The position numbers and the translations under genes were made by a program. From the NCBI GenBank assembly GCA_018398765.1, contig JAHBMJ010000068.1, positions 62,001-126,000 of the forward strand: a stretch of DNA of 64,000 nt, read 5' to 3'. Within the stretch, counting starts at the first letter, position 1, and each line of letters opens with the position of its first letter. Below the pieces are notes generated by a model. The model was not told the origin of the DNA. It did no database searches and worked only from the letters and a program-made list of their open reading frames with translations. Positions 2,933 to 37,288 of this stretch are shown here, piece by piece. This stretch comes from Chromera velia (taxonomy: Eukaryota).

Positions 2933-3030
<98 letters not shown>

Positions 3031-4466
3031 ATTATCTGCACGCATACGGAAGAAAGAGATGCAAAGAGACAGCTCGCACGTTCCTTCGACTGACAGTCAC
3101 CGATGTCAGGCATTGCATGAAACCAAGAAAGTCAGCAGGAAGAGCAGTGAGCCAGGGAAAACAAAAAAAGGCATATCGGATGGCAGGAAGCTGAGATAGA
3201 GGAGAGATAGAGACAAAGGAAGTAAAGCAGAGAAGACAGAGTGGAGACTGGAAATGTCCGTGGTGGTGATTGCTCTGTGCTCTCCTTTCACCTAAAATAG
3301 GGTCTTGGGTGAACATCATGCAATCTCCCTGCGTGTTTTTTTTCTGAACCCTTTCACTGCGCGCCGACGAAAAAAAGGATAGAGCAAGTGCCAAAAGAAG
3401 AAACAGAAAGACAAGAAGAAAGAAAAGAAGAGAACAAAATGCATGTATGCCTTCCTGCCAGTCAGGAAACATATTGTCTGTATGTCAGTCAGTCTGGCTT
3501 TCAACAAACGAGGGAAAGGAAAGGAATAGCTCGTTTTTCTGCCTCACCTTTCTGTGTGTCTGTCGGCCTGCCTGTCTGCGCGACCATCTATCAGCAGCAT
3601 AAGGGTGACCATCTACTCCTCCCTCTTTTTGATTCGAGTGATGGCGTGCAGATTAGTCACGTGATCCGGGCCGAGATGGAAAAGATCGTGACGGAGTTTG
3701 TGGAAAAATGCAACGTCCTCTCCGTACAACAGGTTGGTCGGTTTTTTCCGGATGGGCATGTAAGACTTCAGGGTACGTGCTCAGCTTCTGAGCATGAATT
3801 GGCAGAAACTCTGAAGAGACAGCGATTCTTTGCCTTATCACACAAACACCCCAGAGACAACAAAGAAAAGTTCTTCTGCTTGTGTCTCTCTTTGTGCGTG
3901 TCCGTCCCTGCGAGTCTGAACAAGTGCGTGCACGTAAGTGTAGGAGTTGTCTCTCGCTTTCCCTCTCTCCCCTCTCTATGCGTGCGTGTGCTCTCACCAT
4001 AGGTATGTATATATAAGCGTATGTGCTTGTGGCTGAGTGAGATTTGATGCAGAGGAAAGCCCACGCCTCTCTGATCTTCCGATTGAGAGAAGAGAACGCA
4101 AAGGCGCGCCGAGTGGCCAGACGAAGATGGGAAGTCTCCTTTGACGAGTGGAAGGCTCACAGGCACAGGTGGGTTCAGCCAGGAGGAAAAAGGGGAGAGA
4201 GCAGGCACAGGGGCCAGTCGCTTGAAGGCTGAGAAGACGCAGAGAGAGATGAGTCGAGAAGGTCAAGGCGGGGATATTCAGGTAGACTCACATCACGAGA
4301 AGCAGGCAGAGAAGCGTGAATGGAAGGGGAGGGAAGGGAAGACATACGAGTCCCGCGGCGTTGCGTGAGGCTTCTTCGTACACGCAAACACTTTTCGGAT
4401 GACCTTTTGTTCTTCCCCATTTTTCACATTGATGTGTCTCACAATGGACAGTTGTTGCTGAGCACA

Positions 4467-4502
<36 letters not shown>

Positions 4503-7500: not shown

Positions 7501-8275
7501 ACAACTGGGCTCTCTCTTTGAGAGTAAATCCTGCAGAGCAGCGGTCATATGAATATTCTTGTTTTGTAGCTTTTGGCTTTGATCTTTTCAATTGTCATCA
7601 GGGTGCGGCAAATGTATACTGGGGGAGCACTGCGCTAACCGACGAGCATGCAAGTATCCATTTGCATCGGTGGGAACAAACTGGGCACCTCTATGCATTG
7701 TATGAATTGATGGTGTGTGTCCTGTATCCTAAAGCACATCCTTCTCTCTCAATATGCACCGACGTCGCTGCAGAGTGACGGACGAAGACGGGTCGGAATT
7801 TGTCGTCCAGCGGGAGATGGAAGAAGTAGTAGCGGACTTCCTCGCACCCCCAAGGCCTCCAGAGACAGCGGAAGCAGAAGGGGAGGAGAAACCTCCAACA
7901 CCCCCTCCTGCCCCCGCAGGAAAAAAAGGTGCGCCCCCCCCTCCCCCTCCAGCCGAGGCAGAGGCACCCCCGGAGGAAACGGAGCCGCCGGAGCCTGAGA
8001 CAGCGGAACTCGACGGTATCCCTCTTGTGGAGGAGAGAAACATCACAGCAGACTGGCTACTCTCCAGTGTCGCCTCCTTATACGACAAGCTGTCTGCGTT
8101 TGTTCGTCGCATTCGTTGTGCGAACGTCGAACAGGCTGAGGCGATCCATAAGAGAGAGGCAGAAGCGCTCTCTGTCCAGCTGGATGAGAGGCTCAGACGG
8201 TCAGGAAGCCTGCCTGTCTGTCTGTCAGTCTCTCTGTCAGTCTGTCTGTCTGTCTGTCAGTCTGTCAGTCTGTCA

Positions 8276-8310
<35 letters not shown>

Positions 8311-8361
8311 CGAAAGAAAGGAAGCGATTCGGAAAAAGTGAAGTGAAGAAAAGACAATATA

Positions 8362-8396
<35 letters not shown>

Positions 8397-11300: not shown

Positions 11301-13327
11301 GCAGAGTTTGAAGGCAGATGCGATCAAGGACCGATTTGGGGTGAAAGATGGGCAGCCCGGATTGATGTCGTGTGTCACGTTAGTGAGTGAGGACTTGATG
11401 TTGTTGAGTGAGGAGAAGAAAGAGGGGGAGGGGGTGGACGAAGAAAGGAGAGAGGTCTTGCGACTTCAGGCCGATCTATTTGAGGGCGTCCGGTTCCGTC
11501 TCCTCGGGGGCATCCAGGCCGATCTCTCACCAGACCTTCCGACAGCCGTTGAAGAAATTGACCAGGAGGCAAAAAAACAATTCAACGGAAAAGAACTTCC
11601 CGATTTCCTTTCCTCCTTCTTGGCCCAAGTCAGTGATTTTGTGAGATTCTATTCTCAGATGCTTGTGTCCTGTTTTTCGAGGGTCTGTCTGTTCCAACAT
11701 CTGTCAGTCCATCGGCTTATCTGTCTGCCTCTGTCATATTTTTTTTACTGTTCTCAAGCTTCTTTCTGTGGGGTCTTTTCACTCTCCCTCTCTACGCCCA
11801 TGCACTCCGCACAAAGGCCAATTCCCCTGTCGAGAAGGATAGATTCAAGAGCCGAAGCACGAATGCGCTCTTCACGAATGTAGACATGATTGACTTCATA
11901 AACCTGTGCATAGGTAAAGGAATGTATGGTCAGACGAGTGCGCGAGTGAATGAGTGAGCGAGTAAATGAATGGATGGATGAATGAGAAGGCACCCGAATA
12001 GAAGACGAATGAATAAATGAGAGGCGAAATGCATGTGTGTACAGGTCCGCGTCTCTGCCGAGTCCGAGAGAAAGAAGATGGCTCGGGATATTTTCGTTCT
12101 CTCCCGTCTCCTCAGACTTCCTGATGGCCCATTGACGAGGGCTTCAGCCTCTCTCTTTAAAGAATTGCAGCAGAGGAGGCAGGCGCAGATGATCTCAAAC
12201 ATAGCCGGACTTCGAGCTGAGATCGATGCCCTCTTCGAACAGACGATGACCGAAAGAAGTGCCAATGAGAGACAAATGACACCAGCACTCGCAAATCCCA
12301 ACAAAGCTGCAAAACTCGAGGCCTTGTGTGCACAGGTGAGTGTGAGCTCAAGTACAGCTGAACTTTCGTTGACGTCTCTCTGAGATAATTCTATTAGAGA
12401 TCCTCAGTGCACAAGAATTTTTGTGGATGAGTATGGGACAGTAGAACCGATGGACGGAATGTTTTTCGACCTTTACTCCTGCCCCGGGCATTTGATCGAG
12501 ATTCTTTTGTTCTCTCCTTGCAGGAGCGGGAACGAGCTGAGAAGTCGACTGAGCGTCTGAGAGACTCCTTCTTCCGAACACGGCAAGCTCTCAGAGCGGC
12601 CGCACGGCAGATTCACGTCGAGTGCACGTCCCACTTCGTCGCTCTCCTCCAGGCGATTGACGCCATACCTCTGCCCACCCACTTTGACCCCATCAGCGTG
12701 GGAGAGGATCCGGAGGTGATGGCTGCGGTGCCGCAGGAGTTACCCGACAAGTCCTGGGCCCCCCTATCTCTGGCAGACCTTGCTTTGCCCTCAGGTTGGA
12801 CTTCCTGGCAACCACAGCAGAATGACCAGGAGAAGGAGGAAAAGGGGGGGGTAGAAGAGCAAAAGAAGCAGGCACAGGCACCACAGCAGAAGGAGAAAGC
12901 TGCCGAAGGGAGCGGGGAGGGAGAGACCGGGATTTCTGAGGAGGAGGCACAAGAGATTCGGGACCGTGAGCTTGAGGAGACGGCCTTGAAGGAAGCAGCA
13001 GAGCGTGCAACAACGATAACATCGAAGCAGTCTGTTTTGCACAAGGCAGTTTTTAAAAGCCGCAATGAGGCTTTTCTCCAGTTCAAATCCCGACTTCTCC
13101 AAGAAGCTGCAGCTGCGCTCTCCCGTCTCTCTCAGATGAGATCTGCAGAGTTGGCGCTTGCAGGCAGCTGGGCGAAGATGCACTCCCAGCTTCTGGAGGC
13201 AGCAGCAGCAGAGGAGGACAGCGATGGCGAGGGCACATCGAAAAAGAAAGAGCCTCCACCGATTGAAGAGACGGAAAAACAACCCGAACCCCCCGCAACC
13301 GCAGGCAAAGGGGCAAAAAAAAAGTAA
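1331..13327 (+). CDS. CCDC180: CCDC180/CFAP76-like coiled-coil cilia/flagella-associated protein (DUF4455 + DUF4456 type), 15 exons, ~1721 aa
   Basis: Exons: 1331-1774, 2205-2359, 2758-2920, 3652-3732, 4053-4168, 4699-5206, 5654-5839, 6083-6276, 6725-7132, 7774-8199, 9597-9674, 10102-10794, 11010-11628, 12045-12335, 12524-13327. All are GT-AG and phase-consistent (5166 nt). Segments such as [58 protein letters not shown] and [31 protein letters not shown] follow my recollection of CCDC180 in order. The protein also has KGGK/KKGA-PPP low-complexity linkers typical of flagellar proteins. Confidence 0.82.
3044..3142. repeat. Dispersed ~100-bp intronic repeat next to (GA)n, copy 1
   Basis: ATAC(G/A)GAAGAAAGAGATGCAAAGAGACAG..CACGTTCCTTCGACTGACAGTCACCGAT..GCATTGCATGAAACCAA.AAAGTCAGCAGGAA is also present at 59930-60027. 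Confidence 0.85.
5430..5485. repeat. 27-bp unit perfect tandem duplication in an intron
   Basis: AGCCCATGAAACACTCTGGGGACCACC x2. Confidence 0.9.
8210..8672. repeat. Intronic (TCTG/TCAG)n microsatellite
   Basis: Directly visible tetranucleotide array in CCDC180 intron 10, with one short interruption. Confidence 0.95.
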
Positions 13328-14689
13328 TGAGACCATTGAAGGACAAATGGAAAGCTGAGTGATCGACATAATATATAAGCAACATATAGAATTTTATCAA
13401 ACATTAACACGTGACACCAATTATAATCAAGCAAAAAAAACTTAGAACCTTTAGCAATTCAGGCTGATATTAGAAAGGTGTGTTTCAAAGGTCCTTTTTA
13501 TAATGGTATACAATGGTGCGACAAAATTTTAATAAAACTTTCTTTTACTGCACGTTATTCACTTTTACTGCACGTTGTTTATAATTTTACTTACAGTTTT
13601 GATATTGATATATATAATTATTGAAAGATGTACATAACACGGTGTACAAAAATCTAAATAATACTAATAATATTTTAATAATTGTACGTATCGAATGGTA
13701 CTTATTCTACTGCTCGTTCTGAAATAAAAGGCGTGAACGAGTATTATTTACTAAAATTCAAGAGCTTGAAAAATTAATTTTTCTCTGACAATTACTATAG
13801 TAAAAAAAAATAAATTGATTGATTGATACAAATGCTGATATACTATATATAGATACATGTATCCGTTACGTAACTCCAATTAAGTGGAGGTCGATCAAGT
13901 TACTAAAAAACATCTTGTTCACTTTAATTTACAATATCTAAAGAATTAAGCATATGTCTGGTTTCATCTTATTATGTTCAAAAGCAAAATGAACCACTAG
14001 TTTGGCACTAGATGAACCAAGCGAATGCTGGTCACTAAACATATTATATAAGGCAGTGTCGTAAAAAAAATTTAAAATTTAAATTTTAAAATGTCGAATT
14101 TTTGTGAACAGACTCAACACTGAAGCAAGAAAGCGCCACAGTGCGTGCCCTGCCATTGCCATCATGTAATCGGACTGCTCTGTCAGTGTTCTTTATCAGT
14201 ATTCAAGTTAATAACCTAGTTAATAACAGTTTCTTTCTCCTCCCTCTGTACTTGATCTGGCTGGTGAGAGTAACCATACTCTTTCCTTCATCGTGTTCAC
14301 TTCCTGACATCAAGTGCGACTACCTGCCTCTTTGGCGATCTTTATAGAGTTGCCATGTGCAGCAATCCACCATTCCGAATTTGTTTTTCCAAGGAGAAGA
14401 AGAAGGGAAGAGGTGACAGACCTTGTGACAGACAGAAGAGAAAACAAGACGGAAGCAGCAATCAGTCACTTGGCCAGGCGCTGGCCCGCTACAAACGAGA
14501 AGGAAGGAAAAGTCTTACCCGGAGCGCAAACATGCAAGATGCTGCTGGAAGGATACAATTAATTTGTAAGCGTACAGATGGAGAAGCAGACAAAAAGAAT
14601 CCGTAGACACAAAAGAATCGTTGACGGACGGAATTACTGTCTAGAAACAAAGGACGAAAGTAGACAGTAAGTTCTTTGAACTTTGTCCC

Positions 14690-14840: not shown

Positions 14841-15819
14841 GAGTCCGAGGGCCTCTATTTGCCAATCTTTTTTCTGTGTTCTCATCTGCATTCAATTGGA
14901 AGGATGTCAACATGCGCAGCAATTTCTCATTGATAAAGAAGGACACCCCTTTGAATTTTCAATCCCTTCACGTACTTTTGTTTGCCAGTTCTTTGTCGGA
15001 ATACCATTGAGAGAGACGGAATGGGGATACAGACAATCGGGCTTTTGTGCATCATTCCGTGCGTTCATGTGTGAGAGGGGGTGAATGGATCATGCATGGG
15101 TTTGCTTGGGGCTACCGAACACCAAAAGAAAAGAGACAGACTGACTGGCTGACTTAGAAACTTATGTGGATGACAAGCCAGTCAAGTGCTGCTCCTGACC
15201 TCTTTTGGTTCTGCTCCTTGAAAATTTGGGAAGATCCACTTTCACGTAGCGAGAAGCATAGAGGTCCCAGAGAAAGCACACAAGTGCCTCCCTTCACTGC
15301 GAAGGTTCTTAAATGCGATCAGCAAAGAGAGGAGAGAGAAAGGAAGAGAAGAGAAGAACAGACGGGCTGCACATTGTCTGGTTTCTTTCCTGTCGGTCGA
15401 GAGACAGAGAGAGAGAGAAAGAGAGAGACTGCTTTGACTGATTGTCCAGCGGAGACGATCGCTCAAGTTATTTTTTTGAGCTTTGATTTTGCTGCTCGAC
15501 TCCAACATGCACGTGTCCGCCTACGTACAGCAAGACTCGACAGTTAGGGGAACGAAGGATGCCTGAATGTATGCTCTTTTTTCTCGCCCTCTCTGGCACA
15601 GGAAGGAAACGAGAGAGAGATGATAAGAGACAAAAAGGCAAACATCATTTGCACTGACTCAGTGTGTGGAACTAGAACGAGGAGTGAAGCAAATCGACGG
15701 AACAAACGTACGCTCCCCTCAAAGTTTCCGACCACATATGCACGCGCGTACACACAAATATACATACATACACATCCCTCGGTCGACAGAGTCACTCATT
15801 CCGTCAGTCAATCATTCAG

Positions 15820-18800
15820 TCATATAGTCGGACTATGTTCACGAGAAAGATGCGGTGCCGGTTCGTCGTCTGGCACGTCTTCCTGACTGCATTTCCATTC
15901 CCGCTCCTCTCCCTCTCCCTCCCCTTGCCGTTCGCTTTCCTGAAGTTGACTGCTGTCGAGACCCTCTGTGTCCGGGGGCATCGGTGCGGCCTCGTCGTGC
16001 CGCAACGAATCCACTGGCTGACTGAGGGCACTGGCTCTTCTGTCCGTACTGCTTGCTCTTCTGTCTGTACTGCTGCGAGGGCTTGCAGAAAAATCAGAAG
16101 GAATGCGTGGACGGCCTGGAAGTGATCGCTTTGCTTTCTCGGGGCTGGTCTCACGGGAGACAGGAATCTCTCTGAGACCCGAGGGAAAGTCTGATTGTTG
16201 TCGCCGAGAAGGAGAAGGAGAGTGACTCGGGTCCTCTCCTTCAACGATCCCGTTGGGGCTTAGGCTGCCCTTAAATGAAACAGCACTTGAGGTTGCAGCA
16301 TTAGGAGAAACAGGCAGGGTGAAAAACCTCGCACGGGACTCCCTCTTTTCTAACCGTGGAGGCGCCCCAGGCAGTCGGGAGCTCGAACGCCTTAGTGCCC
16401 CCTCCCCTCTCGGCCTCAGGGGATGTTCTCCCACCGGCATGTCCGCGTACGGAGAGAAGACTTCGACAGCCAATACCTCGCCCTGCTCGTTCTCGTCTCC
16501 CATCAAAATTCGGGAAGGGTCTGGAGGCCCTTGGTGATCGGGGCTCTGACTGTTATGAGACGAGCTCTGAAGCGAATCTTCCTCCCTGAATGAGGACCTT
16601 CTTTTATTCTGCAATTAGAGAGATCAATCGATCAACGAAGGAAGAAGGAAGACAATGATAGTCAGAGAAAATGGACCAAGAGATACAGATACGTGCGCCC
16701 ACAGGGCAAAACAAAGCACATCTTTGTGAGGTTTTTAAATTCGGATATCACCATGCACTACAGCTAGGAGGAATTGAATGATGATGCACTGCATGGCTGG
16801 GTGGCAGCACTTTTGCTGCAAGCTCCCTTTGTCCATGGCTGATGCGCGATTTCGCATCAAACAATAGCAAGTGGTTGCATGAAGAAAATAGGAAAGGCAA
16901 CAAATCGACGCGAATGCATGGAGACAAAGGCACGGCCCAGAAAGCTGACGGCACCCACTCACAAAGTCACGCATATATGTATATATGTGAATATTATATG
17001 GAGAGGGAGAGAGGAAAAAAAAAGAGAAGAGAAAAGAATGCAGGGGAGCTTGAGACGACGCACAGATCGAGAAAGAAGAACGTCGAACGGAGAAGAGACG
17101 TGCACGGACTTAAAAGCACTCACAGAAAAACAAAAAGGCACAGACACGCAGACAGAAGATCGCCAGAGTGTCTGTGCTTCCTCGCTTGCCTAAATGCCTT
17201 CCTGGCTGACTGACTGACATCTGCCTTTCCCTTTCTGCTTCTTGGTGTGAAGAGGTCGTCTTCTTCGTCCTCTCCGTCCGCCCCTATAACCTCAATGCCC
17301 CCACACGATGAGCACAGACAGCACCAAGGTCTGCTGATTTTTCTTCTCAAAAGCTGGGGATAAAACTTTCTCAGCATTTTCACAAGTCGATTTTCCTCTT
17401 TCATCTCCATGTCGAAAAGAATTCGTTCGTATTTCAGGATGAACCTGCAAACAAAACGTCCCCGAAAGGAACCCTCTTTCTTTGACATGAACGACAAAAC
17501 CGTTATCCTGTTTCTTCACTCACGTTGTCATGTTTGTCATTCATATCGAACTCAAGGAGATGGATCGTTCAATTGATTTGGAAAGGCAATGATTGAAGAG
17601 GCAAACGCGTGCATTTGCAAAAAGAATTGCAGAGAGTGAGGTCATCAAAACGACATGAAGAAACAAAAAACAGCTACAAAAAGGGAAGAAAAGCAGCGAG
17701 AAAGCTAGGAGAGGGACATACCAGCAGAAGGCCACAGGATCTCGAGTCAGAGGGTAGGGCTCAATCTGCAGACCGATCGCTTCGACTCTTTTGGCCCGTT
17801 TCAGCACTGTCTCGTCCGATAGACCCGCCAGCATTGCCCGAATACCCAACAGAGCGTGCTGCAAGGGTCCAGCCACGCGGCGCCAGACAAAAAATCCCCC
17901 CGCAATTTTAATTGTGAGGGCCAGAAACAGAATCACCGTCATCGACGTGATTCGAAGGGCCCTGCAATCATCAACAGAAGTCAAGCAACAACCGCAAAAT
18001 AAAGGCATGCATTTATGTGAAGCCATCTATTTATGTATCCATCGGTCCATTTTTCTCTCCCTCAATGTCCCTCCCCCATCTCTCTAGCTGCAGTTTCGTC
18101 GATTCAAATTTAAAGAAGAGACAGACAGAAGTATGGTGGAATGACGAGAAAGATGTTCGGCCCAACTGAGGTTTGAAGAACCCGACAAGCGTGCAGACAC
18201 AGGAGTGAGGAGAAAAGGATGCAATCCGCGTCAGACAGCTTGATGACCACAGCCTTCCAATGCGTGCGTCAGTATTTGGCCTCTCACCTCGTGGGGTTGT
18301 CCTCGCCTGTCCAGACCCCCCGGACGAGAAAGACGGCATCGTAGCGCTCCGAGGTCGGGACAAAGTTGATCAAGTCGGGGGGTGCCTGCGCGAGCGTGAA
18401 AATTCACACAGAATTGATTGATTTCTACTCACATGTGCGCAAAATGTGTGAAAAATGGAACAGGGAAACAATGTGTCGACTTAGATCGTGCGAACAGAGT
18501 GAAGGAAAAGACCTTCTGTGAGACAGGCTCCAGGATTGTATGAAAGCAGTTTCCTCTTCTTGAAACAAACTGCCACGCGAGATCTGATCTCTGTTTCCTG
18601 AAATAAAGAAAACAGCCTCTGAGACGAAATGCCCTTCGAACAGAATGAGGTTTCAACCGGTGCGCCGTTGTCGAGTGTGATGTGCATCGGAGACTCTCTG
18701 AGTGAACTGAGAAGCCGAATGCAAGGTGACAGGGGAGTTCGAGTAGGGAAGCCTTTGGGCATTCTGTCGATGCAAGAAGGCAAATGAGTCGATCCGCAGC

Positions 18801-20119
18801 CATGCACACCCACGAAACATGAACCTCTCTCAAGAGTAGTTACAGATCTACACCTCAGTCCACGCTCTACCACCTTCCTGATTGACTCCTCAAAGACATA
18901 CCCCCCTTCGAAAAGACAGAGCAATTTAGGAACAAAAGTACGTGCCAGGAAACACAGGAAGGACGGCAGATCCACTCACCTGGACTGCCGAGACAAAATA
19001 CTGTCTGTCCCTCAGGTCCATCATAATCGATCGTTGCGTCCCCGTCTCGGCGTCTCGCAGCAGGTCCTTCAGTGCCGTCTCTTGGCCTTCTGCAATGTCC
19101 ACATCCACACGCAGCTCGCTGGCGTCGTATGCTTCCTGTGCTCTCTCCAACTCCCTCTCTGGTTCGACCAGCTGTCGCAAACCGGCCAAAATCTCTCCGC
19201 CCATTGTGAGAGATGGAGGCTCCGAAAGAAGAGATCCCAGAAGAACCGGTTCTCGGATACCGTCTCCGTTCGTGTCTGCGAGGATGTAGATGGCTACATA
19301 CCCCCTCTGAAAGGCCGTCATGGACCATTCGTTGATCGCCGTTTTGCCATTCAGCATATCGGCAGAGATCAGGACAGCTTCCACTGCACCCGACTTTGTG
19401 GTGTCGCTGGACGCGTACACCGGGGTTGCAGTAAATCTGCATCATGCGCATATTCGTGCACGTGTTTCTTTTGTCGCCTGACTTCTATCTGTGTCTTTAT
19501 AATGATAAGCCTCGATCACTCTCTGTACTTGGTCAACCGGCAGTTTGGCATAAAGCATTGAGGCTCTTCAGTATGCTTCAAATAATTCTCTCACGAGACT
19601 GCCTTCTGGTTATGGATTTCTCTACCCACTCTCGATGCAAGGATGATTCACAGCAAATCTTCCTTCAGTCTGGTGGTGTGCATCCATCCAGGTTCACTTC
19701 GGTGTGAATACTCGATACCAGCTACGCAGATCGGAAAGGTGCGCCCAAAGCGATCATAGCAGACACCCAGGTCGTTTCTCTTATTTCTTTCTTTCGAGGA
19801 GAGACCGACCTGCCGACAATAGGCGCTGTGTCCTCCTGGCAGATGTCAGCTGCCGACAGTTTGGAGACTGAAAACTCCGCGTCAGTGTCCGAGAGACCGG
19901 TGTACCCTAGAAGAGCCAGCTTGTCATCCCACTCGGGGGATCCGAGGGGTTTGACGTCGGCAAATGTGATCGCGTCGGTTGCAATGATCTGCTTTTTGGT
20001 GTTCACAACGCGCTGTGGTAGGTCGTTGTACGTGTACTTGGATCCCTCAAAGCTCTGGTCGAGAGAGGTCGCAACAGCCATGACCCACAAATCTGGCACC
20101 TGAGGGAAGGAATACACAG

Positions 20120-20154
<35 letters not shown>

Positions 20155-23100
20155 AGCAGGTGAGATGTAGAGGTGGTATGTATAATGAAGCTCCGACCAA
20201 AGATTCGCATCCACAAAGAGCAGTATGCGCATACGCAAAGGGAGATGTACAGCGACATCAGTCTTTGTTTCACTTGAGTGGGTTTGATTTGACTCTGCTG
20301 TCCGGACGCTTTCCCGTTTTCCGGTACCCTCCTTTCCCTCTGACTGTTTCTTTGACCGAGCTGCTCTCTCTTTCTAGCCCCAAAGCAGGTCGAGACTTTT
20401 CATTTAATTTCTCTTACATTATTCTTTCAGAAATGGATGTATAGTACTTCGGTCAGTCATCGCAAGTTGGAGGCCTTCTCTGAAGAGGTCGCTAGACCCC
20501 GTGGAGAATTGAAACTCGAATGCCACTACGCGCACAACATATTTGCACGGATGGAAGTTTTTTTGTATCTTCTTTGTGCCCTTTTTCTCCATTGAAAATT
20601 CTCCAGAGACTGTTTCTACACTTTTTGATCTCCATCTCACGAGGCTTCGAATGAAATTTAGTCACCAGATACTCACCAATCTGGAGCACACCCTGAGGCC
20701 TGTGCTCGACTTTCCTTTCCAACGGAAAGACTCACCTTGACCATCATGGCGACCTCAATTTTCCTCACGTTGACTTCTCCATTCAGTGCGCTCCTGACCG
20801 AGCTAAGACTCGACGAAGAGGCGACCTCTGAGGGAGAGGTCAGAGAGGAGACTGTCCGCACCGCCGCGTTGTTGGAGACGCCACGAAATCCAAAAGCCAT
20901 CTGGTTCACCTGCACTCACCCACCCATTCAACCACTATTTCACTCACTCACTCACTCACTCACTCACTCATTCATTCATTCATTCATTCATTCATTCATT
21001 CCCAAATGATAGAAAGTTGATGGTGGGTTCATCGAGCCATGCACTTTCCCAGAGAAATACTCACCAATGCATTCATTTACCAGCTCGCTCCTTCATTCTC
21101 TCGGAAGATCATCTGTCAACTGATAAGCAATGCCTCACTCACCAGCTTAGGCAATTCACAGGAGAAAGGGAAGAAGGCCAAAACCACAGTCAACCAGAGC
21201 AACTCCATCTCTTTCACTCCCTATCTTCGCTTACCGTGTTTGGGGGAAGGCAAATTGGATAATAATCAAGCTAAATGTTTTTCTGTCGAGCTATCCAGCG
21301 GTCTGTCTGTTTCTCTGTCTGTCGGGCTGTTTTTGAGTGCGTCTGTCTGTCTGTCTGTCTGATGTACATAAAGGAAACAAGGCAGAAGAAGAAACATGTA
21401 GTCCGTCTGATTGACTGACCTTGATCATGTATGCGATGGAGAGCATATTGGCCTCGTCGACCGCCTGACTCTCGAGGTTTGCTGTCATCAGATTCAGACT
21501 GAGGTACAAAGTCATGACCATCAGCGAGAGGCCGACGACAGAGACGAGGGAGTCCAAAAGAAGTGTGCGGAGAGACGGGAGACGCCAGTGGCACACAGCC
21601 TTCAAAAATTGATGTCTGTCAGAGATTACTGACCGTCGCAAATCCTTCACTCGCAGCTCGATCTCCTCATCATTGAAAAAGTCAGACAAATGGTCAGAGC
21701 CTACTGAAGTCTGACGATTGTATTTTGCCGCCGCTTGATTGTTCATCGGCTGGGGGCGTTTTTGTGCTGCCAATTTCTTTTTTCTCATTTTCTCTTCCAA
21801 CTGCTTTTGTTTCGCCAGTTTTTCTGCCTCGACCCTCTTGCTCTGGTACAATGGTTGATTTTGGTTGGCGAGTCTGTACAACTCCTCCCTGTTGGTCAGA
21901 TACGCTCTGGCGGGCTTTGCAGCTCTCCACACGGGCAAGAGCGCCCCTGTGAAGACGAAGATCACACCAATAATGTCTGCAGCGCGACTGAGGGCCTCAA
22001 GGACTCTGATGATGGTGAAGGACTGACGGGTGTCCTCTCTTTCAACAAAGAGACCACGAACGATAAAAGCAGACCCAGTCTTACGGAGCACTGCGTTTTC
22101 ATCGGGTGCTTCGGTATTCTCAAACAAGCGTGGGTTGATCCTCTTTCCCAGCAGAATGATCTCCTGATCGTCGACTCTGCCAGTCCCCCATACTGTTCTC
22201 CTATGGTCAGAAACTGCTTGGAGACGATTCACTAGCTGCACATGCAGTTGTCAAGCCATATGCATTCATATGCGTCAAGGTTATGGTCACATGAGAGAGA
22301 ATTGGTCTATGAATCGATCGACGAAAGACATTCATGCATCGACAGTGCAGCGCTGGGAGCAAACAGATGGACTGTAGCACAGGAGCAACGAGACAACGGA
22401 TACGCACAACGAGAAAGGGCAAGCCTTTGTGCAGACAAACGGACAAAGTAAGACACAAATAGCTAAACAGACATCCAGACAAATGGACAAACAAACCGGC
22501 AGGCCGGCACACAGACAGACCGGGAAAAAATCAAAAAGTCAGACTGCGGGACTTTCTTTTTTTTCCCTTCTTTTTTGAAAACAACAGAGAAGGCAGGCGA
22601 ACAGGCAGACATACCGACAAGCGAACAGATGGACGGACAGAAGACAGACAAGCAAGCTGGCAGATTCATAGAGACAGACAGGCAGACAGACGTTTTGCGC
22701 GTCATCACCCAGTTCAATTTGCGACGCTCTAGGAAACCCGTTACTTTTGTAGAACTCTGTCACGAGCCGGGGCCCGTCAACCCCCGGGAAGGAGAGGTAC
22801 ACTGCTGCATATCCACTTCCCAGAGCGTTCACAACTCGTTCAGGAACTGCACGCAGGCACCACAGACAAGTGAGTACTTGTAGATGGACAGATTCTCCGA
22901 CTTCCTCACGAACACACGCACACACACATGCGGACAGCTTCAGGAATACCTTCTGGTTCTCGTCGGTGCAATCTTACCGCGGTTTTTGATCTCACTTCCT
23001 GTGCATTCCGCATATTGACTGACGCATGCAAACAGACAGAGACATTCATGCACACGCAGAGTAAATATGTGATCCATACTGTTTTCTTTTTTCTCTGCCT

Positions 23101-23202
23101 TCATTCAACCTCTATTCCTTTTTTCTGTTCATTGTTGTATTCCAATTGATTTAATTTTGTCCCAGTGGTTGATCGATCGATCGATCGATCAGTCGATGGA
23201 TC

Positions 23203-23239
<37 letters not shown>

Positions 23240-23240
23240 C

Positions 23241-23273
<33 letters not shown>

Positions 23274-23508
23274 GGAGTCGGCTGCACGCATGATCGACTG
23301 ACTGACTGAATGACTGACGGACTGACTGACTGACTGGACTGACTGACTGAAGGACGGACTGACGGACGGACGGGCTCACGGACTGACTGACTGACTGACT
23401 GGACTGACTGACTGACGGAAGGACTGACGGACTGACGGACTGGACTGACTGGACTGACTGACTGACTGACTGGACTGACTGACTGACTGACTGGCTGACT
23501 GGCTGACT

Positions 23509-23540
<32 letters not shown>

Positions 23541-25309
23541 TGCAGCCTTCCCATCCACGATGTCCCCTGCCACCAGAATTCCCAGGAGACTCCCACTGGA
23601 GACAATGGGTGTGAGCATCCATCTGACCAGAGGGTCCGTCCCGGTGTCCCATGGATGGAGGGGGGGGGAGGGGTCTGCCTCCTGATCCCTCTCTCTGTGG
23701 ATCGGCGGGTTCTGCAGGCACACACACCCGAGACACCCATTCATTTCGTTCGTTCGTTCGCTTAATCATTCCCTTATTCATTCGTTCATGCGCTCATTTG
23801 CGCATCCATCCATGCATTCATTCATTCATTCAAGCGTGCACATTGGCTGAGAGACCGGCTGATCAAGACACCAGAGGTTTATGGACAAAGAGACATGCGG
23901 ACATTGACACAAGATCAGGCATTGACAACGAGACCCACTGCAAAGAAATGGAAACGCAAAAGGACACAGATATGGAGGTCCAGTGCAAAAGAGGCAACCA
24001 AAAAAGGTGCGGACAAGCAAAGACTTCTTTCTCCCAAATGAGGCCACTGAGCTGTTTGTCTAGAAAAGATCATGTCACGGACCTCTCTTCTGACATCTGT
24101 GAAGGCCAAAATTTCCGTTGTCTTGATCTGGCCCAGGCTCCAGTGATTCCTCATGATCGTCACCAGCCCCGCCGGATCCCAGAGCTCTCCAGTTCTGTTC
24201 GAATTGGCGTTCACAACAATCATTCCGTTGGCATCCAGCAAAGTCGCATACTCGATTTTTCGATTTGTAATCTCAGCCGCCAATGCAGACCGAGAGGTGG
24301 CCTCATACGTCGCGATGTCAGCCCAGTTGGCCGAAGATCCCAGTGCCCTCTCGGCCAGCAGGGCTCGGTGGTTGGGGTTGCGGGACTGTCCTTTGAACCC
24401 GAATCCAATCTGGTCCATTTTCAGGCCTGCACGAAGGATTCAGCCAGACGGGCGGACCAATCACGAAATTAACTTATGCTGTAAAGTGTGACTTATGGAT
24501 GTGAAACTGATTTAAGGTTTGCTTGTTCGCCTACCGCTGCAAGACACGATGTATGGCTCGCTCCGGAGGATAGGATGGACGGTAAGAATACTCTCACTGT
24601 TGTGTGCTGAGCCTTTGACTTAGACCTCCTACCCATCTGCGGCTACATGCATTCTTTTGTGCTCACGCGTCCCGGTACAGCCCCATACACCCACCAATGA
24701 GAGACAAGAACGACTTTAAATTTCATTTCCAGCCGGCGGTCACACGGAAGGAGCTGGAATCAATTGCAAAAGAGGAGCACTTCGGACAAGCAAAGTTATA
24801 TTTCAGGGCAAGAATGATGCAGGAAAGGCGTCCCAAATATAAAGAAAGTGCACGATGCAGAACGAGCAGCGACATTGAAAGGAAAGCTCTTGTTGGCAAA
24901 CCCACACAATCAGAGAGAGACAGAAATTGGGCACGCTTACAGGCAAGCCGCCCATGGACATAGACTTACCGTAAGTCACTTCCAATAGATGGAGCTGCGG
25001 CCGCGCCTTCTCCATTCTCGTGTAGTTGAACGCTGCTGTGAACACTGCAGATTCTGCGTACGTCATTGCGATAATGAGCATCTCCAAGAATCCAATTGCC
25101 AGCAGGACTTTGAAGACCAAACTCAAGCGATGCCAAGCATCTGACAGTCTTCTGAAGACTGTCACGCGCTTGTGGAAGAAATCTTTTAAGCCCCTGTACG
25201 CTCTTTTACCGGCCTGGCTTTGATCGGTGCAGTCCGACCTATTTGTCCCGAAGCCTGACGTCCCTTGTGTCTTACTGTCTGACCTTGACGGTTGGTCATT
25301 GTCCGACAT
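15820..25309 (-). CDS. Four-TM membrane protein with two tandem extracytoplasmic sensor domains similar to cyanobacterial MCP periplasmic (Cache-like) domains; 12 exons, ~1366 aa
   Basis: Exons 5'->3': 25309-24970, 24426-24083, 23711-23540, 22846-22692, 22235-21420, 20909-20736, 20099-19810, 19436-18980, 18385-18288, 17961-17722, 17444-17219, 16608-15820. All are GT-AG and phase-consistent (4101 nt). The internal duplication is directly visible: YGLKMDQIGFGFKGQSRN / YMIKVNQMAFGFRGVSNN; EITNRKIEYATLL / EVNVRKIEVAMMV; LVAGDIVDGK / LISADMLNGK; GSGYAAVY / QRGYVAIY; FIVRG / FLVRG. Each copy is flanked by hydrophobic helices. Confidence 0.85.
23204..23539. repeat. Intronic compound (GT)n/(GA)n/(GACT)n microsatellite starting at a splice donor
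   Basis: The minus strand reads GTCAGTCTGTCAGTCAGTCA... from the donor at 23539. Confidence 0.95.
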
Positions 25310-25682
25310 TTTGCTGTTCCCGACTCACTCCAACTGTTTCCTTCGTGACTGCTGCAAATGGAAGGATTGACCGCCTTGTGTGCAGACAGAGAAGAGGCTT
25401 CCTCCAGAAGCCGGTCTCTCTCCTTACTCGCCGATACAGACGCTGCTGTCTGCTCAGATGTGACGGAACAACTTCTGTTCAACTGTTTGAAAATCCAAGC
25501 ATGCACATTTGTGCGTAAGCCGGATACATGCCCTCACGCATTCGATCGAGTCAGCATTGTGATTCGTGATGTATATGAAAATGCCCCCGCCTGTATACTT
25601 AGCTTTGTGTCTTCACCACCGTGATGACGAGAAGAGACTGCGTTGGAAAGATGTTGCAAAGAACGCGGTCAGACAGTGGCCG

Positions 25683-26223: not shown

Positions 26224-29200
26224 ATGACAGACCGTCGGTCTTCTGACCTGCGCGTGGCTCGTCTGGGCGCCGGTCGCATGAGTGTGATGGCTTTCCACAA
26301 GCCTGTGGCCTCCGGCGCAGGGACAGCGCAGAGAGATGGGGGGCTTCCACGGCGCATTGAGGCAAGGCAAGAGCCCCGCGTGCCTCCTCCAGCTGCGTCC
26401 GTCAGTGAGTGGCGGGATTTCATCGACAAGGTCCACGGAGGACCGGGGAGGGGGCTGCAGGGGGGAAGGAGGGGCTTCGAGAGTAAAGAAACTGCTGGCA
26501 AACGACGGCAAGTTCCGGTCAGTACTCAAGTACATGCAGGCAGCGAGTCGAAGGAGGTGATTCGCCGAGCCAAAAAAAAAATCAATCAAGTTAGGTAGAG
26601 ATTGACGGGAGCCGAATAAAGAAAAAGACAGCAAGAATGAGTGAGTGGAACCGCAAAGAGCTTCAGCTCCACGTGCAGGAATATGCACACATGAGAAGAA
26701 GTGTATATAGAGGAACAGACTCATACATGTAGGAAGCGTCAAGAAACAGAAAGCGGGTCTTGGAGGGTTGAAGAACGACAGCAACTGCAAAGAGGACCCC
26801 TCTTTGGTTGCTTTTTGTTTTCTTTATACGACCTTTTCTTCGTGTCCTGTTGGTTGTTTCCGTCTCGGATCCCCCATCTTTTCTCATCTTGTGCTCCTCA
26901 CAATTTGAAGTGCTCTCTTCCATTGCACCACCCAGCTTTCACCAGCGCCTTTCTCGTCTCGTCTTTTTTGCTGTGCCCGTATGCAGGAGGCGCGAGAAGG
27001 CCGGGAGACCACGCCACCGCATTTGCAATCCCTCCAGCAAGGCAAGGTCCCTCCTTTGGAGGCGATCAAGGAGACGCCATACGAAGAAGGAAAGGCCGAA
27101 TTAGATCGGAAGGGTCAGAAGAAAAGAGTTGAAGAACCGGATCCTGTGGAAGCCTTTCATGATTGTCTGCCTGTGGAGGAAACCGACAACGAAAAAAAAA
27201 ACCCTCCGCAGATTCCGCTGAATTCACAGGCTGTACCTGCTTCTGCTTCTGCCTCCGTATCTGCATCTCCGTCTCTCACGGTGGCTCCAGCGCCGACACA
27301 ACCGATTACTTCGATGGAGGAGACGGGGAACGGAATGTTGGTTAAAGAGACGTTGAGTCAAGAGGAGGACCAGCCTGTTGTTACGGGGAGGGAGGAGAAG
27401 AGAAAGACTTCGATCACGCCAGAGGAGGGTTTGGAACAGAACATGCTACCCATGTCAGAGAGCAGTTTGGATGATAGTCGTCAACCTGTCAGTGAAAAGG
27501 AAAAGCCTCTAGCTGCAGAAGTCCCTTCCGTGGCTGTCTCCTCCGTTTCTCCTTCTTTCCTCCCTTCTGCAGAAGACCAAGAACAGAGTCCGCTAGACCG
27601 CCAGTACCAGCAGCAACAGGAGGATCAGCAAAAAGAGAGAACTCTCCCGACTCGGACGGAGCAGAAAAAGCAATCACAGACGCCCGCTGAAATTCCCTCC
27701 GGACCCCACAAAGCGGGTCAGACGGAGTTTGGAGAGAAGGAGGAGGACGGTCACGTGGGATCAAATCTGGCTGAGAGTGCAGAGAAACAGCCCGAGGGGC
27801 AGATACAAGAGGGCGAGAATGATCAGAAAGGAGAACTTGATGTGAATGATCGTGCCATGATTCCGCAGTCGACCTTTCTTGGAGAGACAGCTGAGGAAGG
27901 GGTTTTGCGTGAGATTCTCAAAGAAAACGACAAAGAAGAGCAAGGGGAAGAGCCTAACCAAGTAACTAATCCCCTAGATGTGCCCCGACCTCTTCTGAAA
28001 GGGGAGGAGAGTCAAGAAGCAAACCATCAACAGGTACACCCTCTTCAACTTCCGGATGCAAAACTTGAAAGATCAGGAAAACAAACCGGGTTTCTTTCGA
28101 TAAAAACTCCAGGTGCGATGACCCCCGATACCTCTCCTATGATCACCCCGGATGTATACTCCTCCGGGGCCCCCTTTCGAGTTCCCACACCCATCGACGC
28201 TTTTCTTGCCCAAACTCTAGCCCCCCCCTCCCATGGGCCCTTCGGCACTCTCAGTGCTGTATCAACATCAAAAGGGATCACCCCTGATATCCCAACATCA
28301 AACGATGTTACTCCAGGTGTGGAGACTTCAAAGCCAGTTCAGGTCGGGAGGGAGGATGGGACACCCGACCCCATTGAAACCACAAGACAGAGGGAGCAGC
28401 AAGAAGTTGAAGGGAAGCAAGGAAGTCAAAGTCAAATCCCAGAGCAAGACAGCACAGTAGAGAATCTGCGACCTCCACGCGAAGGGACACAGATTCATGA
28501 GCCTGGTGTTGCCATGCCGTCGTCCTCCTCTTCCTCTTCCTCTTCATCGTCCTCTTCGTCTGCCGTTGCTGCCGTGGAACCTCAGGTGCCTTCCGGTCGT
28601 TTGCCTCTGCGTGCCCCCCCCCTACCATCTGAGATGATGATCATCCAAGACCACCCCCCCATATCGCCGGAAGCATATAGTTCCGGTGGCCCATTTCGTG
28701 TACCCGGGCCGCTGGGAAGTTTTTTGGCTTCGATTCTCGCTCCTTCGTCTTCCGGTTGTTTTGGGAACCTGCCCCCAACCCCTGCAGTCCAAGCACATGA
28801 ACAGAAAGGGGCAGAGAAAAAGGTCACACAGAGTATGACGCAAAAAGAAGAGACCGACCGAATAGCACTCGAAAACAGCACCAGACTGACTTCCCCATTC
28901 CACCCGCGTGCGCCTGAAGACATCACCCCTGTTGACAAAATTCCATGGCCTCGCACCCCTGCCGTCCTCCCTCCCTCGAGGCCTTTGGAGCCCGTCCCAG
29001 AAAAGAAGCCGGAACGATCTCAACCGGTGGACGCACACAGAGACAGACACACAGAGAGCAGAAAGCAGCCTCCGACGCTCCCCGAAGACCCCCCAGCCGA
29101 GTGCTTCACGACGGCACTTCAGACATTAGGAGGACAGCAGCCGATGGTGCAGGAGGCCAAGAGGGAATCGGCAACGCCCTGCAGGGACGAACCGGAAGGC

Positions 29201-30697
29201 CAACTTCCAACTCGCAGTGTGAGGGAAGCGGGGGATGAGCATGTCACTGACGTAGTGAGGTTGGGGCAGCGGCAGATGTCTGTAGAATCCTTCCATTCCT
29301 GTGTTGGCGAGGACTCTAATGTTCCTGTCAGTACCTCCATGACTCCACAGCCACTCACCGTCAATCCCCCACGATCTCCCCTTATGAACGCTCCTCCTCC
29401 TGGCCCCAGCCAGAGCCCATTGACTCATCCTCTCCACACACACCCTCTCTCGAACATTCAGACGACAGAAATGCAGCCTGACGGAAGTGGTCAAATCGAA
29501 GTCAACGTTACCGTTTCTCTTCCGGAGGAGGAAGAACCCCCAGCGTCTTCCCTCATGGCTCTGACATCCCTTCATGCACCGGGATTGGCCTCTCGCACAG
29601 ACGGTCTCCCGGCAGCAGGGGTCGGCGCTCCCGTTCTCTCCGGCACTTCCTCTCAAATATGTCAGCTCAGTGCACCCCCTCATACCGGTCCACACTTTTC
29701 CAGACCAATCCAGGGAAAGGACGGCCAGTCTCCCGACCACACTCAATCGACCTTACGGAAAAGTCCTTTCGGCCTTGAGAAGATCCAACCGCAAGCGCCC
29801 CTCAGCACACCGACAGCGCGGGTACAGTCACTCACAACAGCATCTGGAGGGTTATCTCCGAGTCACACCCAAGCCGCCTACCCACTGCCCCCCCTTTCTG
29901 CAACACCAATTCCCCTCACATGCGTTCCCGTGTTGGCCCTCCACCCTACTCCGGCTGCTGCTCACTGCTCTCTCACGACCTCCGTCCCGCCACTCAATGC
30001 TGCAAAAGGGCTGAGGATGCATGAACGTCCGACTGCACCTCCAACCTTCAGACCAGCCATGGAAACGCAAATGCCCGCCACTGTACCTCCCAGCCATCAG
30101 AGAGAACAGCCGAGCCAGTCCCATCTCATCTACTGCCCTGCTATTCCGGTCATCATACCTAGGCATCCCCGCAGCCCTAGACCGCACTCGTTTGTGGACG
30201 CTTCTCTTTCGCAAGTCACCTCTCGCCCGATCCCCCTTCCCCACCCCCAGCCCGTCACCTCTTCTCTTCCCCCTGCACGCCCTGCTCTGATTACAGACTC
30301 ATGGAGATGGGGCTCGATCAACGATCGTCTGCCTGATTCGACCCCAGTCTTTGCCAGTAACCAGCTTCCCCACGCACATCCTGCGATGTGCCCACTCATT
30401 GGACCACATCCACAGTGTCATCAGGGGGCCATGCGGTCCTGTCAGCAGTCTCTTTCTCCATCCCGTCCAAACACGAGGCTGTCTTCGGGTTTTCCGTGTC
30501 AACAGTCCATCCAACAAGTGGCTCAGAGCAACTCAAACGGTCTGACAAGCATTTTGGACTTCATATCGGAACCTCCACCAACTGAACCACGCGCCCGTGA
30601 GCTGCTTTTTGAAGCAGTCAAGAGGGTACAGGGGGGTGGAACTCTTCCCAATGACGTCCGATTTCTTGTTGAGATGCGAGCACGCCTGAATCGCTAG
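26224..30697 (+). CDS. Large low-complexity (P/S/E/Q-rich) hypothetical protein, probably 2 exons, ~1347 aa
   Basis: There is a 3.7-kb stop-free ORF at 26981-30697. A TGCAG acceptor lies just before 26987. A phase-0 donor (GAG|GTGATT) at 26556 joins it to the upstream ORF starting at ATG 26224. No recognisable folded domain. The first exon and start codon are less certain. Confidence 0.75.
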
Positions 30698-37021: not shown

Positions 37022-37288
37022 TTTCTGTCGAACGTGCTGGGGTAAAGAAGAAACGTAGAAGGAGACGGCTACGTGAAGACTATAACTTCCCTCGGTTTTG
37101 CTTCCGAGATCAAAGCACTCAGGTTCCAAAAGGTCCTCTGCAATTTGGGCCACAAACTCGAATTCTCAAAGTCAGCTGTCGTCATTGGTTCCTCCCCAAC
37201 GGAGAATTCGAGGGCACGCAAGAATTCGATCAACAGTACGACGCACGCTTCTGATATCTTCCACGTGCATGCATGCGTCATCGGAAGG

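What the first reader, a model, noticed from the sequence alone, without database searches (positions are those of the whole stretch)
15820..25309. Intron-rich eukaryotic receptor built from two tandem cyanobacterial chemoreceptor-type sensor domains, without a bacterial output module
Seen in sequence: the gene emerges only after splicing 12 exons, and the ORF track shows it as unrelated fragments. The product reads TM1 - ~300-aa domain - TM2 - charged cytosolic linker - TM3 - second homologous domain - TM4 - cytosolic tail. Recalled knowledge: the ordered motifs Y-x-[LI]K[MV][DN]Q[IM][GA]FGF[KR]G-x-S-x-N, E[IV]xxRKIEYATL, IVVNAN-x-x-R-x-GE-x-[WF]-x-P-x-x-LV, QIK-x-x-EI, R[WF]xxTP[IV], LVxGDIVxGK, GxGYxAVY and [LI]VRG match the periplasmic region of cyanobacterial methyl-accepting chemotaxis proteins. 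In those proteins this region is followed by HAMP/(GAF)/MCP-signal domains. Here I see no HAMP, MCP-signal, histidine kinase or cyclase domain. Inference: a prokaryotic sensor acquired by endosymbiotic or horizontal transfer, then duplicated, intronised and rewired to an unknown eukaryotic output. This is a candidate new chemosensory receptor family in a flagellated alga-like alveolate.
Basis: partly seen in the sequence, partly recalled or inferred. Interest (0 to 1): 0.9.

Follow-up and report, generated by a model that had tools for sequence, protein, structure and literature searches.

The report
Double bacterial-type sensor in protist membranes
A spliced gene of the alga Chromera encodes a predicted four-pass membrane protein made of two copies of a cyanobacterial-type sensing module with no recognisable output domain; the same design occurs in several distant protists, where it likely works as a so far undescribed small-molecule receptor.

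Summary
Twelve GT-AG exons give one 1366-aa frame; residues 77-1366 are identical to Chromera velia Cvel_2667 (A0A0G4F367, uncharacterised). Contigs of probable RNA runs (one study) bridge 8 of 11 introns. Both ~330-aa extracytosolic domains align end to end with a cyanobacterial TM-sensor-TM module; models of two paralogues fold as dCache (Z 16.5 and 14.7 to DctB). No HAMP, MCP, kinase or cyclase domain is detected.

The family is not Chromera-specific: the same output-less tandem protein occurs in ochrophytes (Pinguiococcus, Tribonema, Chrysoparadoxa) and a non-photosynthetic rhizarian (Leptophrys). All first domains and all second domains form two mirrored groups (SH-aLRT 87, 86), so the duplication is probably old and shared across SAR. 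Related modules in Cyanophora and Entosiphon keep HAMP and cyclase outputs.

Best reading: a bacterial sensor homodimer fused into one chain (predicted pairing weak: 0.59 against control 0.00) that signals through membrane-proximal helices to a separate partner. Ligand, location and partner are untested. I found no paper on it in 10 searches; supplements were not seen.

The parts
24970..25309 (-). Exon 1 (aa 1-113): start codon at 25309, cytosolic N-terminus, TM1, start of domain 1. Public annotation starts later, at 25081 (Met77).
   Evidence: contigs over 25134-25566
24083..24426 (-). Exon 2 (aa 114-228): core of domain 1 distal module
23540..23711 (-). Exon 3 (aa 229-285)
   Evidence: joined to exon 4 in contigs
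22692..22846 (-). Exon 4 (aa 286-337)
   Evidence: intron 4 skipped in 3 of 4 runs
21420..22235 (-). Exon 5 (aa 338-609): end of domain 1, TM2, cytosolic linker, TM3, start of domain 2; one open frame joins the two modules
20736..20909 (-). Exon 6 (aa 610-667); intron 5 before it is not bridged by contigs
19810..20099 (-). Exon 7 (aa 668-764)
18980..19436 (-). Exon 8 (aa 764-916)
18288..18385 (-). Exon 9 (aa 917-949)
17722..17961 (-). Exon 10 (aa 949-1029): TM4 and first half of the conserved cytosolic helical region
17219..17444 (-). Exon 11 (aa 1029-1104): rest of the helical region and a cysteine cluster
15820..16608 (-). Exon 12 (aa 1105-1366 and stop): low-complexity Ser/Pro/Arg-rich tail, predicted disordered in a paralogue
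   Evidence: a contig runs unspliced over 15612-16250, past the stop
25064..25120 (-). TM1 (aa 64-82), predicted by hydropathy
   Evidence: aligns with cyanobacterial TM1
22002..25042 (-). Domain 1 (about aa 90-415, exons 1-5): dCache-type extracytosolic domain
21927..21983 (-). TM2 (aa 422-440); carries an Asp nearly invariant in the family and is followed by an invariant Pro
21564..21926 (-). Charged cytosolic linker (aa 441-561), about 120 aa in Chromera against about 30-45 aa in the other protists
21507..21563 (-). TM3 (aa 562-580), homologous to TM1
17958..21494 (-). Domain 2 (about aa 585-950, exons 5-10): second dCache-type domain with Chromera-specific insertions
17886..17942 (-). TM4 (aa 956-974), homologous to TM2
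17306..17885 (-). Cytosolic helical region after TM4 (about aa 975-1075), conserved among Chromera paralogues; begins like HAMP helix 1; possible degenerate HAMP (lead only)

Best explanation
The gene encodes a predicted four-pass membrane protein with two homologous dCache-type domains and no recognisable catalytic output, which likely acts as a single-chain version of a bacterial sensor dimer: a small molecule would bind the dCache pockets and shift the membrane helices, and the cytosolic helices would pass this to a separate, unknown partner. Shown here: the spliced frame, the two homologous modules, their homology to a cyanobacterial TM-sensor-TM family, absence of detectable output domains, and the same architecture in alveolate, ochrophyte and rhizarian proteins. 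Predicted: dCache fold (paralogue models), membrane topology with both domains outside the cytosol, pairing of the two domains. Inferred: origin from a cyanobacterium (most simply through the plastid lineage, since the glaucophyte Cyanophora has single-module relatives with HAMP-PAS-cyclase-phosphodiesterase output), one duplication with loss of the output early in SAR, then expansion in Chromera to at least seven paralogous loci with a longer linker and a conserved helical region after TM4 that would serve as the partner-binding surface. The ligand is not identified.
For: Homology: profile-profile match of the tandem family to the cyanobacterial module, probability 100, E 8e-53, 340 columns from before the first TM to the Pro after the second. 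Fold: Cvel_10364 model pLDDT 75.9, pTM 0.68; top structural matches are dCache sensor domains, Z 16.5, rmsd 4.4, 219 aligned to DctB, and Z 16.2, rmsd 1.9, 125 aligned to CitA for the distal module; domain 2 model of P0020 Z 14.7, rmsd 4.0, 181 aligned to DctB among 48,161 chains. Breadth: of the 150 listed hits, 19 proteins not annotated as Chromera show two modules and no HAMP; of these, 6 looked up carry species names (Pinguiococcus x2, Leptophrys x2, Chrysoparadoxa, Tribonema), 5 looked up have none, 8 were not looked up. Tree of 95 domains: 26 first domains on one side of a branch (87), 25 second domains (86), with mirrored subgroups, and the 51 separated from cyanobacteria, Cyanophora and Entosiphon by a 99* branch. 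Signalling path kept: Pro after TM2 invariant in 14 of 14, Pro after TM4 in 13 of 14, Asp in TM2 nearly invariant, and Glu, Arg, Asp, Gly of the distal module conserved at positions also invariant in cyanobacteria. Domain pairing: score 0.59 against best control 0.00, runs agree in at least 89% of contacts, partner pLDDT 70; the mark was reached by 51 of 78 solved complexes and 2 of 108 mismatches, but at 0.60 or under by only 5 of 78 solved and all 4 passing mismatches, so this is weak, and dCache homodimers are solved, so it may reflect likeness. Recalled: bacterial dCache receptors work as homodimers.
Against: No ligand, location, partner or phenotype was tested. Several family members have lost the most conserved cyanobacterial helix motif (for example P0103, P0123, P0137, P0161), so one shared ligand is unlikely. 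The window's own protein was not folded singly; two paralogues were, and the proximal module of domain 2 and the region after TM4 have low confidence (pLDDT about 40-70). A HAMP is not detected by profile or profile-profile tests (anchored test p 0.04-0.18 after TM4, 0.33-0.65 after TM2). The tree is a quick search, unrooted, with 9 long end branches and 11 rows of odd composition; support for the two domain groups is under 95; no AU test. The patchy named distribution (no Vitrella, apicomplexan, dinoflagellate or diatom among 20 hits looked up) fits eukaryote-to-eukaryote transfer as well as descent with loss. Eukaryotic dCache proteins without own output (alpha2delta, CACHD1) are channel modulators rather than stand-alone receptors (PMC8915833, passages).
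Confidence: 0.55

Rival explanations
1. Auxiliary or structural subunit: like alpha2delta and CACHD1, the protein would bind and traffic or tune a channel, transporter or cyclase, or act in surface adhesion, with ligand binding optional.
For: No catalytic domain in 29 of 29 members scanned; the known eukaryotic two-dCache proteins modulate calcium channels (PMC8915833, passages); the sensor motif is eroded in several members.
Against: Four-TM layout and the Pro-started helices after both second TMs follow the bacterial signalling architecture; no VWA insertion, which that paper reports in the eukaryotic dCache_1 proteins it analysed; different Cache subfamily (closest Pfam model dCache_3).
Confidence: 0.2
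2. Organelle-lumen sensor: same mechanism, but the domains would face the ER, periplastid space, alveoli or a vacuole and report internal metabolites or ions rather than the outside medium.
For: Topology alone cannot tell lumen from exterior (established); a cyanobacterial periplasmic sensor inherited with a plastid could stay on an endosymbiont-related membrane; most named carriers have plastids.
Against: Leptophrys, a vampyrellid rhizarian (non-photosynthetic, recalled), has at least two divergent members; the N-terminus is predicted cytosolic with no evident targeting peptide (by eye).
Confidence: 0.15
3. Recent independent events: the module entered several protist lineages separately from cyanobacteria and was duplicated more than once, or spread sideways between eukaryotes, so there is no old SAR family.
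For: Patchy named distribution; long branches can attract; Entosiphon has its own tandem arrangement with cyclases whose halves do not match the SAR halves in register (BLASTP 83/80 and 64/62 bits), so tandem duplication has probably happened at least twice.
Against: First domains group with first domains and second with second across alveolate, ochrophyte and rhizarian sequences, with mirrored subtrees; independent duplications would pair each protein's own two domains. All share a 10-15 residue insertion absent from cyanobacteria before the strand with the conserved Arg. Sideways spread of an already tandem gene is not excluded.
Confidence: 0.07
4. Two genes: the locus is split at intron 5, giving a domain-1 protein and a separate domain-2 protein.
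For: Intron 5 is not bridged by contigs; public models of paralogues stop or start at this same point (Cvel_29720 ends there, Cvel_19893 runs into the intron, Cvel_19894 and A0A0G4G2E9 begin just after it).
Against: Canonical in-frame GT-AG junction; three Chromera models read through it; a split would cut the first helix of domain 2; transcript-derived homologues (P0021, Leptophrys) are single frames over both domains; contig depth is low here and the intron holds microsatellites.
Confidence: 0.03

Closest known systems
Cyanobacterial TM-dCache-TM-HAMP receptors (MCPs with GAF domains, histidine kinases); nearest Pfam model dCache_3, PF14827
   Same: Whole module homologous from the helix before TM1 to the Pro after TM2; about 30-37% identity over the distal part. 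One example lies in a PatA-type receiver, CheY, CheW, MCP, CheA-like cluster (L004; gene names from my reading of the sequences), another stands alone (L053).
   Different: Two modules in one chain; no HAMP, GAF, MCP or kinase domain; introns; insertions in both domains. The cyanobacterial family itself mostly scores below the dCache_3 cut-off (33 of 50 match at E<=0.1, best 2.5e-10) and has no solved structure found by sequence.
Bacterial dCache and sCache sensor domains of known structure (DctB, CitA, DcuS, KinD, PctA, Tlp3)
   Same: Predicted fold: long stalk helix with distal and proximal PAS-like modules.
   Different: 7-16% identity; ligand cannot be transferred; these are separate chains that dimerise (recalled).
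Eukaryotic Cache-HAMP-nucleotidyl cyclases (Naegleria, Euglena; here Cyanophora P0119 and Entosiphon P0168)
   Same: Bacterial-type sensor in a protist membrane protein; described in PMC4822843 and PMC6366073 (passages). P0119 and P0168 carry this very module.
   Different: They keep HAMP and cyclase (P0119 also PAS and phosphodiesterase; P0168 is module-HAMP-cyclase twice). The SAR tandem family has none.
alpha2delta subunits and CACHD1 (dCache_1 with VWA insertion)
   Same: Eukaryotic, two dCache domains, no catalytic output (PMC8915833, passages).
   Different: There the domains are nested with a VWA insertion; here they are side by side, each between its own pair of TMs, with no VWA and no dCache_1 amino-acid motif.
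CHASE histidine kinases (cytokinin receptors) and Sln1
   Same: Cache-superfamily sensor between TMs in eukaryotes (PMC6944256, PMC4822843, passages); AHK4 appears at Z 10.0.
   Different: Single sensor with histidine-kinase output.

Membership tests
Cache superfamily, double Cache domain | Extracytosolic domain between two TMs | tested here: met
   Hydropathy and alignment to cyanobacterial TMs; topology is predicted, not measured
Cache superfamily, double Cache domain | Stalk helix plus two PAS-like modules | tested here: met
   Paralogue models match dCache structures, Z 16.5 and 14.7; predicted models, window protein not folded singly
Cache superfamily, double Cache domain | Binds a small-molecule ligand | not testable with these tools
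   No binding assay possible
Pfam dCache_3 (PF14827) | Score above the curated cut-off of 25.7 bits | tested here: not met
   Cvel_2667 12.2 bits, best paralogue 20.1 bits; one eukaryote-type relative P0130 reaches 26.5 and one cyanobacterial-type relative P0035 32.8, so nearest family but below cut-off
Methyl-accepting chemotaxis proteins | MCP signalling domain | tested here: not met
   Absent in Cvel_2667 and in 29 of 29 members scanned
Methyl-accepting chemotaxis proteins / HAMP receptors | HAMP domain after the second TM | tested here: inconclusive
   No significant profile match; only the starting Pro and a helix are kept; language-model search of aa 895-1010 of P0001 ranks HAMP clusters second, 0.92, 128 of 256 features, a lead only
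Sensor histidine kinases (CHASE-HK, Sln1) | HisKA and HATPase domains | tested here: not met
Cache-HAMP-nucleotidyl cyclases | Class III cyclase domain | tested here: not met
   Absent here; present in relatives P0119, P0168
alpha2delta / CACHD1 (dCache_1AA) | VWA inserted in a nested dCache_1 pair | tested here: not met
   No VWA match; two side-by-side modules
alpha2delta / CACHD1 (dCache_1AA) | Amino-acid motif YxxxxRxWY (PMC8915833) | tested here: not met
   Not seen in either domain, read by eye

The most novel reading that the evidence does not exclude
An undescribed, old SAR-wide receptor class: a cyanobacterial periplasmic sensor, passed to eukaryotes through the plastid lineage, that lost its HAMP-cyclase output and was fused head to tail into a single-chain pseudo-dimer with two different pockets, and now signals environmental chemicals in protists (including Chromera zoospores and predatory amoebae that eat algae) through a eukaryotic partner; Cyanophora and Entosiphon proteins preserve the intermediate stages.
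Probability: 0.35. Interest if true: 0.88.

Novelty: new variant of a known kind. Interest (0 to 1): 0.72.

Why it matters
Few surface receptors are known in SAR protists outside parasites (recalled), and eukaryotic Cache domains have been described mainly in calcium-channel subunits, histidine kinases and cyclases (PMC4822843, PMC8915833, passages). This family escapes Pfam cut-offs, spans all three SAR branches in the named hits, is expanded in Chromera, and has soluble domains suited to ligand screens; a paper on Chromera transfection exists (PMC12407925, listing and abstract start only). It also gives a traceable series from a cyanobacterial receptor, through eukaryotic sensor-cyclases, to an output-less pseudo-dimer. 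The ligand of the cyanobacterial family was not found in my searches either, so one screen could inform both.

Tried and rejected
Single exons against Pfam gave only dCache_3 at E 0.11. Word-based searches found only Chromera and cyanobacterial-type proteins and would have suggested a Chromera-only family; the full profile search overturned this. Back-translated scans found no relative in prokaryote genomes (138 pattern matches) or metagenomes (204); the patterns were Chromera-specific, so these blanks say little. Sequence searches of the PDB gave only chance matches. A full HAMP after TM2 or TM4 was not found; homology between the two cytosolic segments was not found. Four motif loci from non-cyanobacteria (L005, L013, L019, L035) are chance matches; L027, labelled Acetobacteraceae, sits on a 0.03 branch beside a Nostoc sequence and is probably mis-binned. 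Seven of the 80 long loci (those four, and L014, L025, L071, truncated) and the 40 short loci were left out of the profile. P0164 (sensor start fused to a receiver domain) looks like a truncated or chimeric bacterial record and was not used. A donor clade within cyanobacteria could not be placed. No whole genome was held, so the paralogue count rests on database proteins. No run is on record as RNA: no RNA holder listed; lack of contig cover at introns 2 and 5 proves nothing. One contig skips exon 11 (depth 2.5, 30 nt on the short side, out of frame); not pursued. AU tests and a careful tree could not be run. Earlier-findings look-ups returned nothing.


Full report
Gene model. Reading the minus strand gives 12 exons between 25309 and 15820. 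All 11 introns are GT-AG, 277-693 nt long, and the joined frame is 4101 nt, 1366 aa, with one terminal stop. A search with exon 2 alone returned a protein identical to residues 77-1366: Chromera velia Cvel_2667, UniRef A0A0G4F367, uncharacterised. The public model starts at Met77 in the middle of the first hydrophobic stretch.

Transcript evidence. Four runs of one study, guessed to be RNA and kept as contigs, hold the stretch. Their contigs skip introns 4, 6, 7, 8, 9, 10 and 11 at the predicted ends and two contigs join exons 3 and 4. Intron 1 has a 13-nt loose end matching exon 2. Introns 2 and 5 are not bridged. Contigs run unspliced over the start (25134-25566) and past the stop (15612-16250), so no extra 3' exon is seen. 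Exon 5 holds TM2, the linker and TM3 in one frame, so the two modules are joined in genomic DNA up to the first helix of domain 2. Public models of some paralogues break at intron 5, which I read as an annotation artefact but could not exclude here.

Anatomy. Hydropathy peaks at aa 64, 422, 562 and 956, and the halves are homologous (E 3e-15). The motif came from the family itself, so this does not measure range fairly. A profile of 73 loci matches domain 1 at E 1e-50 and domain 2 at E 1e-27. Profile against profile, the match is E 8e-53 over 340 columns and ends at the Pro after the second TM, where HAMP begins in cyanobacteria. The cyanobacterial proteins continue with HAMP and GAF/MCP or kinase domains. 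Their nearest Pfam model is dCache_3 (33 of 50 members at E<=0.1), and the language-model search of domain 1 also returns Cache clusters (0.96).

Fold. The window protein exceeds the size limit, so two paralogues were folded. Cvel_10364 (both domains, pLDDT 75.9, pTM 0.68) matches dCache sensor domains (33 matches at E<=0.001, the listed ones almost all sensor domains; Z 16.5 to DctB, Z 16.2 with rmsd 1.9 to CitA). P0020 (domain 2 and tail, pLDDT 57) matches DctB at Z 14.7 among 48,161 chains. After TM4 the model shows four helices of low to medium confidence, then disorder. The two halves of the window protein, folded as separate chains, scored 0.59 against 0.00 for the best of three controls; the tool calls this weak support (at 0.60 or under, 5 of 78 solved complexes and all 4 passing mismatches), and likeness to solved dCache dimers may explain it.

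Output. No HAMP, MCP, kinase, cyclase or VWA family matches any of 29 members at E<=0.1. Tests for a HAMP remnant were not significant. Still, the Pro that starts HAMP helix 1 is invariant after TM2 in 14 of 14 aligned members and present after TM4 in 13 of 14, and the segment after TM4 draws HAMP clusters in the language-model search (0.92, 128 of 256 features, a lead only). In Chromera the linker is about 120 aa and a 100-aa helical region ending in a cysteine cluster follows TM4; in the other protists the linker is 30-45 aa and the tail is short or low in complexity.

Breadth. A profile search of 1.84 billion representatives gave 222 hits at E<=0.001, 150 listed. The best hits outside Chromera are not cyanobacterial but tandem proteins (E 6e-81, 8e-72, 6e-51 against 2e-38 for the best HAMP-bearing protein; tandem proteins score twice, so the gap is inflated). 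Nineteen listed proteins not annotated as Chromera show two modules and no HAMP. I could look up 20 hits: Pinguiococcus pyrenoidosus (2), Tribonema (2 clusters), Chrysoparadoxa australica, Leptophrys vorax (2), Chromera (4), Cyanophora paradoxa (2), Entosiphon sulcatum (1), and 6 with no species name. The first three are ochrophytes and Leptophrys a rhizarian (Tribonema recalled). Named Chromera models now include Cvel_2667, 16214, 10364, 19893/19894, 29720, 11618, 14794 and 13727, at least seven loci. Cyanophora P0119 is a single module followed by HAMP, PAS, cyclase and phosphodiesterase; Entosiphon P0168 is module-HAMP-cyclase twice.

History. In a tree of 95 domains (quick search, unrooted; 26 of the 73 loci, 14 bacterial-type hits, 51 tandem domains, 4 eukaryote-type single or cyclase modules) the 26 first domains form one side of a branch (87) and the 25 second domains another (86), each split into a Chromera group, a Leptophrys group and an ochrophyte-containing group. 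A 99* branch separates them from cyanobacteria, the Cyanophora group and Entosiphon. This favours one duplication before these lineages' copies diverged. Entosiphon's halves do not match the SAR halves in register, so its tandem is probably separate. The tree has long branches, no outgroup and no AU test, so the direction of transfer and the route are inferred. A first tree with all 73 loci could not place a donor.

Mechanism. Cache domains bind ligands and pass a change through the following TM to a cytosolic domain (PMC8915833, passages); they act as dimers (recalled). A head-to-tail copy supplies both protomers in one chain and lets the two pockets diverge. With the catalytic domain gone, the conserved TM2 Asp, the Pro-started helices and, in Chromera, the linker and post-TM4 helices are the likely route to a partner in trans; cyclases are plausible partners given the relatives' outputs, but nothing here tests that. 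I put this at 0.55, an auxiliary-subunit role at 0.2 and an organelle-lumen sensor at 0.15.

Known versus new. Eukaryotic Cache domains are described in alpha2delta/CACHD1, histidine kinases and Naegleria or Euglena cyclases (PMC4822843, PMC8915833, PMC6944256, PMC6366073; passages only). None has this side-by-side four-TM layout without output. Ten full-text searches found no description of the family or of six Cvel gene numbers; the library lacks most subscription papers and the supplements listing eukaryotic Cache proteins could not be read.

Noticed in passing
P0168 / P0140 (Entosiphon sulcatum transcript): Tandem [TM-dCache-TM-HAMP-class III cyclase] twice in one 1329-aa chain; both cyclase halves appear by eye to keep the catalytic residues.
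   Followed up: partly
P0119, P0136 (Cyanophora paradoxa); P0144 groups with them: Single cyanobacterial-type module with HAMP-PAS, in P0119 followed by cyclase and phosphodiesterase: a candidate plastid-derived receptor in a glaucophyte.
   Followed up: partly
P0027 (Cvel_14794, 1996 aa): Chromera paralogue with a long tail holding a stretch near aa 1560-1640 that looks PAS-like by eye; no Pfam match and no significant match to the Cyanophora PAS.
   Followed up: partly
window 25081-25309: The public model Cvel_2667 lacks the first 76 residues and half of TM1; several paralogues are annotated as fragments.
   Followed up: yes
window 35421-37165 (minus): Citrate synthase gene (Pfam Citrate_synt E 1e-93).
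   Followed up: no
window 60648-61502 (minus): Exon of a DHHC palmitoyltransferase-like gene (E 2e-6, just under cut-off).
   Followed up: no
window 26909-30697 (plus): Single 1262-codon Pro/Ser/Gln-rich open frame with no Pfam match, oriented away from the gene studied.
   Followed up: no
window about 1200-13330 (plus): Fragments of a large multi-exon coiled-coil-rich gene, no Pfam match for the five exons tested; contigs also cover 15000-15389.
   Followed up: no
window 37069-38288: Two similar stretches each containing a run of N, probably an assembly gap within a repeat.
   Followed up: no
L121:2740-5019: A contig in the viral collection carries a full cyanobacterial-type sensor-HAMP-histidine kinase gene, possibly host DNA flanking a provirus.
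   Followed up: no
window 16608-17722: One low-depth contig joins exon 10 to exon 12, skipping the 226-nt exon 11; minor isoform or artefact.
   Followed up: no
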